Positions 6,157 to 6,957 of a DNA stretch of 64,000 nt are shown in pieces (within the stretch, counting starts at the first letter, position 1; every line of letters starts with the position of its first letter). This stretch comes from an uncultured Clostridia bacterium (GTDB lineage: Bacteria; Bacillota; Clostridia; TANB77; CAG-508), in NCBI GenBank assembly GCA_949948835.1, contig CATLHF010000007.1, positions 15,354 to 79,353 on the forward strand, given 5' to 3'. Both the position numbers and the translations under genes were made by a program. Below the pieces are notes generated by a model. The model had not been told where the DNA came from and searched no databases. It was given only the letters and a program-made list of their open reading frames with translations.

Positions 6157-6957
6157 ATGAAAAACAAATCAAAAATTAGAGTAGATGGTATTACGTTAAT
6201 TGCTCTTGTTATTACTATAATTATATTATTAATCATATCTGCAAGTATACTTCAACTAATATTAGGAGAAAATGGAATTATCAATTTGGCTAAACTGGCA
6301 GGAAGAAATTATATAGATGCAGAGACAGATGAAAAAAGAAGATTAGAAGATTTATATAGTTCAATTTTAATTGCAACAAATGATGATGCACAAATTAATA
6401 TTTCAGTAAAAGATTTAAAAGCATTTATAAGAGAAGAAATTAAAAACAATGGCGGGGCAAGTAATCCAATAGGAACGGTTATTTCATATATGGGAAATAA
6501 TGTACCAAATGGATATTTAAGTTGTAACGGAAGCATATATAATATAGCAGACTATTCAAATTTAGCAGAACAAATTAAGCAAGAATTTGGAACATATAAC
6601 TATTATGGAGGAGATGGAGTAACTACCTTTGCTGTACCAGATTTAAGAGGTGAGTTTCTAAGAGGAACAGGACCTAATAGTCATACAAATCAAGGTAATG
6701 GTATAGCAGTGGGAAAACATCAGGACTCAACTGCTTTTCCAATGTATGCGTTTACTGCTAATAAGGATATGAATATTTATGGATCTACATCTGATGTAGT
6801 TACTGTGCGCAATTCGGACGGGTACATTATGGAAGGAAATATTTATGCTGCCTTGGTTAAAAGTACATCGGACTTTACCAGTACAACAGGAATAACAACT
6901 AATATGAGGACTATCCGACCAACCAATACATCGGTATTATATTGTATAAAATATTAA
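6157..6957 (+). CDS. Pilin-like N-terminus fused to a phage tail-collar (MdpB-like) domain
   Basis: N-terminus MKNKSKIRVDG|ITLIALVITIIILLI plus LGENGIINLAKLAGRNY, shared with the pilin at 22415; C-terminal PNGYLSCNGSIYNIADYSNLAEQI...YGGDGVTTFAVPDLRGEFLRG matches the tail-collar consensus. Confidence 0.75.
   Translation: MKNKSKIRVDGITLIALVITIIILLIISASILQLILGENGIINLAKLAGRNYIDAETDEKRRLEDLYSSILIATNDDAQINISVKDLKAFIREEIKNNGGASNPIGTVISYMGNNVPNGYLSCNGSIYNIADYSNLAEQIKQEFGTYNYYGGDGVTTFAVPDLRGEFLRGTGPNSHTNQGNGIAVGKHQDSTAFPMYAFTANKDMNIYGSTSDVVTVRNSDGYIMEGNIYAALVKSTSDFTSTTGITTNMRTIRPTNTSVLYCIKY

What the first reader, a model, noticed from the sequence alone, without database searches (positions are those of the whole stretch)
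6157..6957. Pilin-type N-terminus fused to a phage tail-collar (MdpB-like) receptor-binding-type domain, next to comEC
The first ~55 residues are homologous to the major pilin at 22415: G|ITLIALVITIIILLI followed by LGENGIINLAKLAGRNY versus LGEHGILNMAKEAGKNY.

The C-terminal half carries the tail-collar signature (P.G(Y/W)L.C(N/D)G..Y....Y..L......G..YGGDG.TTFA(V/L)PDLRG). That signature is otherwise known from phage tail fibres and microcystin-dependent MdpB proteins.

No other phage genes are nearby.

Inference: this is a pilus-displayed or pilus-tip adhesin or receptor-binding module, or a cargo of the pilus machinery. It lies directly downstream of comEC and a small membrane protein.
Basis: partly seen in the sequence, partly recalled or inferred. 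Interest (0 to 1): 0.6.

Follow-up and report, generated by a model that had tools for sequence, protein, structure and literature searches.

The report
Pilin helix carrying a phage-fibre head
This gene joins the N-terminal helix of the bacterium's own type IV pilus subunit to a binding-type domain otherwise found on phage tail fibres, and it is one of about 20 such helix-plus-head surface proteins in a tiny gut Clostridia genome, a family that is missing from related genomes that lack the pilus machinery.

Summary
ORF 6157-6957 (266 aa) has an N-terminal 59 residues 51% identical to the operon pilin at 22415 (E 9e-17). It also has a tail-collar domain (Pfam PF07484, 62 bits against a cut-off of 24; PHROG tail collar fibre E 2.5e-21; PDB phage short tail fibres E 3e-11).

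It is best read as a modular type IV pilin of an atypical kind. It has no Glu5 and no globular pilin domain, only the helix.

- The genome has 18-20 ORFs with the same module on different heads.
- In its family, 44 of 44 genomes with PilT have 5-48 such ORFs. Nine of nine genomes without PilT and PilC have 0-1.
- The same head also occurs on canonical Glu5 pilins and, without any helix, on a tail-module protein of an Enterocloster phage.
- Residues 191-250 are hypervariable between almost invariant flanks.

The position next to comEC is incidental. The gene is an ~860-bp insertion absent from that site in the nearest relatives, and its orthologues sit elsewhere.

Signal cleavage, incorporation into the pilus and the ligand are all untested. 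I class it as a new variant of a known kind (modular pilins), of moderate interest.

The parts
6157..6957 (+). Whole ORF, 266 aa plus stop: modular pilin-like protein with a tail-collar head
   Evidence: no in-frame CGG
6157..6189 (+). Short basic leader MKNKSKIRVDG ending in Gly11. Gly11 is the putative prepilin-peptidase site (G|ITL).
   Evidence: Read from the sequence. G or A at this column and T13/L14/L17/T20 are invariant or nearly invariant in 46 homologues. Cleavage itself is not shown.
6190..6333 (+). Pilin alpha-1-like module (residues 12-59): hydrophobic helix ITLIALVITIIILLIISASILQLIL, then GENGIINLAKLAGRNY. It is shared with the operon pilin and 18-20 paralogues. Ala replaces Glu at position +5.
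   Evidence: AF2 helices 9-36 and 41-73. Weak profile hit to Geopilin domain 1, 9egp, E 0.0044.
6334..6471 (+). Helical neck (residues 60-105) with the conserved block LEDLYSSILIATND..I.ISV.DLK.FI. In the profile alignment it matches the coiled-coil shaft of phage short tail fibre 9cuy.
6472..6660 (+). Tail-collar core (residues 106-168), including the invariant Cys123
   Evidence: Pfam PF07484, 62.1 bits; pLDDT 92-98
6727..6906 (+). Hypervariable insert (residues 191-250). Mean column identity is 0.16-0.35, against 0.86-0.99 in the flanks. Candidate specificity-determining region.
6907..6954 (+). Almost invariant C-terminal strand RTIRPTNTSVLYCIKY with invariant Cys263. It is also present in the phage homologue (ARPTNVAVLYCIRYQ).
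6957..6988 (.). 14-bp-stem palindromic hairpin flanked by A and T runs. It is a likely bidirectional terminator and arrived together with the gene.
5558..6154 (+). Upstream BofC_C-domain membrane protein. Its stop codon is 2 nt before the ORF's ATG. No promoter-like site was found on the + strand between them, so co-transcription is likely.
22415..22645 (+). 76-aa helix-only pilin in the type IV pilus operon. It is the reference copy of the N-terminal module.
19636..28612 (+). Type IV pilus operon: PilM/N-like, pilin, PilD-like, two minor pilin-like ORFs, PilB, PilT, PilC. It is the only type IV filament machinery detected in the genome.

Best explanation
The ORF encodes a bimodular, pilin-like surface protein that depends on the genome's single type IV pilus system.

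Anatomy (shown):
- A short basic leader ends in Gly11.
- An alpha-1-type hydrophobic helix plus the GENGI..AK.AG.NY segment follows. This part is homologous to the 76-aa helix-only pilin of the pil operon.
- A helical neck comes next.
- The head has a conserved phage tail-collar core, a hypervariable 60-residue insert and an invariant closing strand.

Proposed mechanism (inferred):
1. The helix inserts the protein into the membrane.
2. The leader is probably removed at G11|I12.
3. The PilB/PilC/PilM-N machinery extracts the helix into the filament core alongside the major pilin. The bulky head would then sit most plausibly at the tip, or sparsely along the shaft.
4. The head projects outward and binds a surface glycan or other ligand, with specificity set by the variable insert.

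The protein is one interchangeable head among about 20 in this genome. It is accessory: the gene was inserted at this site in this species only, and the head is shared with tail proteins of phages of gut Clostridia.
For: Homology of the carrier:
- 51% identity over 59 residues to the operon pilin, E 9e-17.
- The module recurs in 18-20 ORFs of a 1.51-Mb genome, each with a different C-terminal domain, for example RCC1 propeller, Big_2 + DUF6273 and FGE-sulfatase-like.

Dependence on the pilus machinery:
- In family f1, 44 of 44 genomes with PilT carry 5-48 module ORFs (median 20).
- Nine of nine genomes without PilT carry 0-1. Three of these are in a genus whose other sampled members carry 5-44. 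Fisher p = 2e-10, not corrected for phylogeny.
- The same nine genomes also lack PilC.
- The own genome has only PilB and PilT as secretion-type ATPases, so there is only one candidate machine.

The head is a genuine pilin cargo elsewhere: the same head (52-60% identity) is fused to canonical KKGFTLIELLAVI pilins that have Glu5, a globular pilin domain and a Pfam N_methyl hit.

The head is phage-fibre-like:
- Pfam, PHROG, PDB and Foldseek all agree.
- Enterocloster phage CB457P1 gene 36, directly after the tape-measure gene, has the same head at 43.6% identity and no helix.

Other support:
- A hypervariable insert lies between flanks that are 95-99% conserved.
- An A24 peptidase with an intact Peptidase_A24 domain (64.7 bits) and both Asp motifs is encoded at G000:C2:77933-78685.
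- Modular pilins are an established class (PMC8179133).
Against: - Glu5, regarded as near-universal in bacterial pilins, is replaced by Ala.
- Pfam N_methyl scores 10.4 bits against a cut-off of 21.2.
- There is no globular pilin beta-sheet domain.
- The operon's PilD-like protein matches only the N-terminal A24 domain, not the peptidase domain.
- The one intact A24 peptidase is retained in the relatives that lack the pilus and the module, so it is not specifically tied to this family.
- The gene is not in or near a pil operon in any genome examined.
- No expression, localisation or binding data exist.
- The co-loss test counts genomes, not independent evolutionary events: at least two, at most about five.
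- Monomer models cannot show assembly, and TM-scores to gp12 are low (0.37) because gp12 is an interwoven trimer.
Confidence: 0.65

Rival explanations
1. It is a plain membrane-anchored surface protein. The N-terminal helix would be an uncleaved signal-anchor that only resembles a pilin helix. The head would sit on the cell surface on its helical stalk, possibly as a trimer like phage fibres, and would not enter a filament.
For: No Glu5 and a sub-threshold N_methyl score. The operon PilD-like protein has no peptidase domain hit. The gene is solitary and unlinked to pil genes. The neck aligns with a phage-fibre coiled coil. The intact A24 peptidase is kept in genomes without the family.
Against: A simple anchor would not be lost as a whole family together with PilT and PilC. 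It also would not need conservation of Gly/Ala at -1, T2, L3, L6, T9 and the GENGI..AK segment shared with the operon pilin. The same head is carried by canonical Glu5 pilins.
Confidence: 0.2
2. It is a substrate of a bindosome-like system. The pilus machinery and the class-III-type signal would place many binding proteins in a short surface assembly rather than on long retractile pili, as with the sugar-binding proteins of Sulfolobus that carry class III signal peptides (from my own knowledge of the Bas system).
For: There are many substrates per genome (5-48) with one shared signal, and they are lost together with the machinery.
Against: A PilT retraction ATPase and a helix-only pilin gene lie in the operon, which argues for a true dynamic filament. 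Nothing distinguishes the two readings computationally.
Confidence: 0.1
3. It is a prophage remnant, or a functional phage or tailocin tail fibre (the 'MdpB-like' annotation).
For: Collar, PHROG and PDB tail-fibre hits. Databases call homologues 'tail fiber protein' or 'microcystin-dependent protein'.
Against: No phage genes flank it here or at five homologous loci. The phage version lacks the hydrophobic N-terminus. The inserted segment is only the gene plus a terminator.
Confidence: 0.03
4. It is an ordinary Sec-secreted protein. The N-terminus would be a signal peptide cut by signal peptidase I, for example after ISA at residues 27-29.
For: A basic n-region, a hydrophobic core and a small-residue motif ISA are present (read from the sequence).
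Against: The hydrophobic stretch is about 25 residues, longer than a typical Sec signal core. Most paralogues do not share the ISA motif and have LAG instead. Conservation continues well beyond the putative cut site and matches the pilin.
Confidence: 0.03

Closest known systems
Modular type IV pilins PilB (vWA module) and PilC (lectin module) of Streptococcus sanguinis; the 'modular pilin' class of Raynaud et al. 2021 (PMC8179133)
   Same: An N-terminal pilin-type carrier is fused to a non-pilin binding domain. The proposed display is at the pilus tip. Both are monoderm hosts. Many architectures exist per class.
   Different: - The carrier here is only the alpha-1 helix. It has no globular pilin domain, no Glu5 and scores below the IPR012902/N_methyl threshold, so the InterPro-based catalogue would miss it.
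- The collar domain (IPR011083) appears in that catalogue only in two single-protein architectures.
- Here there are 5-48 paralogues per ~1.5-Mb genome, dispersed rather than in the pil operon.
Bacteriophage T4 gp12 short tail fibre receptor-binding region (PDB 1OCY, 1PDI, 5IV5) and other phage short or long tail fibres (9CUY, 8KEC)
   Same: The collar core sequence and fold are shared. A helical or coiled-coil segment precedes it. The closing strand is conserved (rPkN..vmYiiK against RPTNTSVLYCIKY).
   Different: There is no phage context. The N-terminus is a membrane or pilin helix rather than a baseplate-attachment domain. No gp12-type head domain with a metal site was identified. The oligomeric state is unknown.
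Enterocloster phage CB457P1 gene product 36 (WAX11074.1)
   Same: Similar size (267 aa). The same head at 43.6% identity over 92% of it, including the variable insert layout and the C-terminal ...RPTN.AVLYCIRY.
   Different: It is encoded next to the tape-measure gene in a tail module. Its N-terminal 100 residues are unrelated and not hydrophobic.
Helix-only pilins such as Geobacter PilA-N
   Same: The carrier and the 76-aa operon pilin consist essentially of alpha-1 alone. There is a weak profile hit to 'Geopilin domain 1' 9egp, E 0.0044.
   Different: From my own knowledge, Geobacter PilA-N keeps Phe1 and Glu5 and pairs with PilA-C. No such partner was identified here.
Trimeric tip minor pilins of type IVb pili (ETEC CofB, V. 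cholerae TcpB), as described in the discussion of PMC8179133
   Same: A pilin N-terminus is followed by extra beta-rich domains that form a tip complex. A trimeric phage-fibre-type head would suit a three-start filament tip.
   Different: There is no sequence relationship. The trimer idea was not tested here.

Membership tests
Type IV pilin (class III signal peptide, IPR012902 / PF07963) | Short basic leader ending in Gly, followed by about 20 hydrophobic residues | tested here: met
   MKNKSKIRVDG|ITLIALVITIIILLIISASILQLIL. G or A at -1 and T2, L3, L6 are conserved in 46 homologues.
Type IV pilin (class III signal peptide, IPR012902 / PF07963) | Glu at position +5 of the mature protein | tested here: not met
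   Ala at +5 here, in the operon pilin and in all paralogues.
Type IV pilin (class III signal peptide, IPR012902 / PF07963) | Pfam N_methyl at or above the gathering score | tested here: not met
   10.4 bits against 21.2. The operon pilin scores 18.0 bits and paralogues 16-17 bits.
Type IV pilin (class III signal peptide, IPR012902 / PF07963) | Alpha-1 helix packed on a globular beta-sheet head domain | tested here: not met
   AF2 gives two helices (9-36 and 41-73), then the neck and collar domain, with no pilin beta-sheet. Canonical relatives such as P0102 do have such a domain.
Type IV pilin (class III signal peptide, IPR012902 / PF07963) | Functional dependence on type IV pilus assembly genes | tested here: met
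   The support is phyletic only. Of f1 genomes with PilT, 44 of 44 have 5-48 module ORFs. Of those lacking PilT and PilC, 9 of 9 have 0-1.
Type IV pilin (class III signal peptide, IPR012902 / PF07963) | Cleavage and N-methylation by a prepilin peptidase, and presence in the filament | not testable with these tools
   An intact A24 peptidase exists but is not specific to genomes with the family. The operon PilD-like protein has only A24_N_bact.
Modular pilin (Raynaud et al. 2021) | N-terminal pilin carrier plus an additional domain not specific to pilus biology | tested here: met
   Carrier homologous to the operon pilin plus Collar PF07484. The carrier itself is atypical (see the rows above).
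Phage tail collar domain (PF07484) | Profile score above the gathering threshold across the full model | tested here: met
   62.1 bits against 24, model positions 1-57 of 57. PHROG and PDB agree.
Phage or tailocin tail fibre | Encoded within a tail or baseplate gene module | tested here: not met
   Housekeeping neighbours here and at five homologous loci. The inserted segment is only the gene plus a terminator.
MdpB / COG4675 'microcystin-dependent protein' | Soluble collar-domain protein without a membrane helix. This is an annotation label and no functional definition is known to me. | not tested
   Some homologues carry this name in JGI. It says nothing about function.

The most novel reading that the evidence does not exclude
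In this lineage a Glu5-less, helix-only pilin segment works as a portable 'address tag'. It lets one retractile type IV pilus display dozens of interchangeable heads.

Some of these heads, like this one, would be taken directly from the receptor-binding proteins of phages that infect neighbouring gut Clostridia. The bacterium would then grab the same cell-surface glycans that phages recognise, for attachment to partner cells or for targeted DNA uptake. This pilus is the only type IV filament available to serve comEC.

Heads would move as single-gene cassettes between chromosomal sites and between phage and pilin gene pools.
Probability: 0.25. Interest if true: 0.75.

Novelty: new variant of a known kind. 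Interest (0 to 1): 0.5.

Why it matters
Type IV pili are thought to gain new functions by grafting modules onto pilins. This family would show that principle in an extreme form in abundant but uncultured gut Clostridia.

- The carrier is minimal and breaks the 'Glu5 is essential' rule.
- There are tens of heads per 1-2-Mb genome.
- At least one head is shared with phage tail proteins.

Standard annotation misses this. The family scores below the N_methyl threshold, homologues are named 'tail fiber protein' or 'hypothetical', and the public gene call for this very protein (P0001) starts at Met112 and drops the helix. Surveys of adhesins in these bacteria are therefore probably blind to it.

The co-loss of the family with the pilus genes gives a concrete, testable link between the two. 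The hypervariable insert marks where to look for ligand specificity.

Tried and rejected
- comEC linkage: rejected. Orthologues lie next to a sigma factor and rpoB, a histidine kinase, rny/ymdB, or ToxN/U32 peptidase, and the canonical form lies after ileS. The site is empty in G011 and G023.
- Prophage remnant: rejected for lack of any phage neighbour.
- Recoding artefact: checked, because this genome is reported to read CGGN as one codon. There is no in-frame CGG in the ORF.
- Using the intact A24 peptidase as a marker for processing: uninformative, because all 21 genomes tested keep it, including the nine without pilus or module.
- A Tad or Com system as alternative machinery: tblastn with PilB, PilT and PilC finds no further paralogue in the own genome. 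The TANB77 pilus paper (PMC11680825) describes a Tad-type cluster, not this system, and I could not establish that this genome belongs to that order.
- The full-length AF2 model was mediocre (pLDDT 66). A C-terminal model with 120 sequences was better (81.8), but Foldseek TM-scores to gp12 remain low, so only the collar core is comparable.
- NCBIfam gave no hit.
- The literature search for 'tail collar' + pilin found nothing relevant.

Full report
**1. The observation**

ORF 6157-6957 (+) is open for 266 codons and starts 2 nt after the stop of the upstream gene. Earlier notes on this genome report that CGGN is read as a single glycine codon. I therefore checked the ORF and found no in-frame CGG, so its reading is unaffected.

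The first 59 residues align without gaps to the 76-aa pilin at 22415-22645, with 51% identity and E 9e-17.

The tail-collar signature is supported by four independent lines:
- Residues 106-168 match Pfam Collar (PF07484) over the whole model at 62.1 bits against a cut-off of 24.
- PHROGs gives 'tail collar fiber protein' at E 2.5e-21.
- A profile of 46 homologues hits solved phage short tail fibres: 9cuy at E 3e-11, and T4 gp12 entries 1ocy, 1pdi and 5iv5.
- Foldseek with a C-terminal model (pLDDT 81.8) ranks T4 gp12 first.

Both halves of the observation are real and far beyond chance.

**2. Anatomy**

- **Leader:** MKNKSKIRVDG.
- **Hydrophobic helix:** about 25 residues, in the register of pilin alpha-1 (T2, L3, L6 conserved), but with Ala instead of Glu at +5.
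- **Shared segment:** a GENGI break and a second helix that is still homologous to the operon pilin.
- **Neck:** a conserved helical block (LEDLYSSILIATND...) that aligns with the coiled-coil shaft of phage fibre 9cuy.
- **Head:** the collar core with invariant Cys123, then a 60-residue segment (191-250) that is hypervariable with indels, then an almost invariant closing strand RPTNTSVLYCIKY with Cys263. Mean column identity is 0.16-0.35 in the variable segment and 0.86-0.99 in the flanks.

A conserved scaffold carrying one hypervariable loop region is the usual layout of a specificity-determining binding domain. That the loop binds a ligand is an inference.

**3. It is one of a family**

The 1.51-Mb, 29.7% GC genome holds 18-20 ORFs that begin with the same module (KGITL(I/V)ALVITIIVLLILAG..LGE(N/H)GIL..AK). 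They continue into unrelated C-terminal regions: an RCC1 propeller, Big_2 plus DUF6273, an FGE-sulfatase-like region, glycine-rich repeats, and several with no Pfam match. Only this one has a collar domain. The shortest member, the 76-aa ORF in the pil operon, is essentially the module alone.

**4. Dependence on the pilus machinery**

I sampled 151 genomes of the order for PilT and for the 43-residue module consensus.

| Genomes of the window's family (f1) | Number | Module ORFs per genome |
|---|---|---|
| With PilT | 44 | 5-48 (median 20) |
| Without PilT | 9 | 0-1 |

- Three of the nine PilT-less genomes belong to a genus whose other sampled members have 5-44.
- The nine also lack the PilC platform protein.
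- Fisher's test gives p = 2e-10. The genomes are related, so the number of independent losses lies between two and about five.
- In the own genome PilB and PilT are the only ATPases of this superfamily, and no second PilC-type platform protein was found. One machine is therefore the only candidate partner.

This is the main new evidence.

**5. Processing is unresolved**

- The operon's PilD-like protein matches only the N-terminal A24 domain.
- A separate 250-aa protein at G000:C2:77933-78685 has a full Peptidase_A24 domain (64.7 bits). It has both Asp motifs by eye (IDYNLQIIPN and GFGDVKL).
- That peptidase is retained in all 21 genomes tested, including the nine without pilus and module. It cannot serve as evidence for cleavage of this family.

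**6. The head is a shared module**

About 3000 database proteins match at E <= 0.001, and a representative search finds 584 clusters at E <= 1e-30. Three architectures recur:
- This one, a Glu5-less helix plus neck plus head, seen in roughly 25 of the top 150 clusters at 50% identity.
- The same head at 52-60% identity on canonical pilins (KKGFTLIELLAVI..., a globular pilin domain, Pfam N_methyl positive), for example P0065, P0085, P0102 and P0108.
- One to six copies of the head in large proteins without any pilin helix.

Enterocloster phage CB457P1 encodes a 267-aa protein directly after its tape-measure gene. It has the same head (43.6% identity, 92% coverage) and an unrelated, non-hydrophobic N-terminus. 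The head is therefore a bona fide phage tail module. It has been joined at least twice to pilin carriers of different type, which supports reading it as pilus cargo.

**7. The neighbourhood is incidental**

- In the nearest relative (G011; BofC-like protein 93% identical) and in G023, the stop of the bofC-like gene is followed by 50-70 bp and the convergent pgsA gene.
- In the window this spacer is replaced by about 860 bp: the gene plus its own palindromic terminator.
- G011's own collar orthologue sits after a histidine kinase. Others sit between a sigma factor and rpoB, between rny and ymdB, or beside ToxN.
- Only 5 of 25 species of the genus have the collar orthologue. Outside the genus, none of the other sampled genomes of the family (151 sampled in all, 50 genera) has it.

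The gene is a mobile accessory cassette. No promoter-like site lies between it and the bofC-like gene, so here it is probably read through from the comEC/bofC-like transcript. That is an accident of insertion.

**8. Comparison with what is known**

The concept of modular pilins is established (PilB and PilC of Streptococcus sanguinis, PMC8179133). That paper's InterPro catalogue lists the collar domain in only two single-protein architectures, and I found no paper that discusses a collar-headed pilin.

This protein works like a modular pilin but fails three formal pilin criteria: Glu5, the N_methyl threshold and a globular pilin domain. I therefore class it as a new variant of a known kind, not a plain new member.

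Earlier notes of this scan on this and related genomes describe the same Glu5-less pilin family and operon. I treated them as leads.

**9. Verdict**

- **Observation:** confirmed.
- **First reading:** partly supported.
- **Best explanation** (confidence about 0.65): a pilus-machinery-dependent modular pilin-like protein displaying a phage-fibre-type binding head.
- **Main rival** (about 0.2): a plain membrane-anchored surface protein.
- **Not shown:** cleavage, incorporation into the filament, oligomeric state and ligand.
- **Interest:** moderate (0.5).

Noticed in passing
G000:C2:77933-78685 (outside the window); window 22667-23533: The prepilin peptidase functions look split. The operon PilD-like ORF matches only A24_N_bact (E 3.8e-31) and not the peptidase domain. 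A lone 250-aa ORF between a HAD-type phosphatase gene and pepP/efp has the full Peptidase_A24 domain. That lone peptidase is kept in relatives that have lost PilT, PilC and all module ORFs, so it must have another or an additional substrate.
   Followed up: partly
G000:C1:125869-128237, C5:49604-53501, C2:338-1477, C10:58097-58942 (outside the window): Eight paralogues share an almost identical first ~70 residues, and several also share the ~30 nt upstream of the start (translated NKKVKGDKRK). They then diverge completely. Two sets form tandem triplets. This looks like a recombining or variable adhesin repertoire.
   Followed up: no
window 50719-51189 (+): A third ORF in the window has the same style of N-terminus (MKKTEEKGITLVTLVVTIIVMIII...). 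It is 156 aa, and no family search was run on it.
   Followed up: no
window 6157-6957: The public gene call for this exact protein (P0001, 155 aa) starts at Met112 and omits the pilin module and neck. Homologues are named 'tail fiber protein', 'microcystin-dependent protein' or 'hypothetical'.
   Followed up: partly
window 3034-5362; L024 6974-10712: Under table 11, comEC reads as three consecutive ORFs (501, 108 and 114 aa), and rpoB of a same-genus MAG is called as 284 + 944 aa. This is consistent with earlier notes that the lineage reads CGGN as one codon. I did not examine it here beyond checking that the target ORF has no in-frame CGG.
   Followed up: no
whole genome G000: tblastn with PilB, PilT and PilC finds no further paralogue, so no ComGA/ComGB-type or CpaF-type system is detectable. 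If comEC is functional, the window's pilus operon is the only type IV filament available for DNA uptake.
   Followed up: partly
L042 9001-9951 (P0102) and relatives P0065, P0085, P0108: These are canonical Glu5 pilins with a globular, Cys-containing pilin domain, and they carry the same collar head. They are encoded as solitary genes, for example directly after ileS, in another Firmicute lineage.
   Followed up: partly
L045 1430-1497 (G011 intergenic) versus window 6957-6988: The relatives' spacer between the bofC-like gene and pgsA holds a GC-rich hairpin (GGGATGGGG...CCCCCGTCCC). In the window it is replaced by a different AT-flanked 14-bp hairpin that came with the inserted gene.
   Followed up: no
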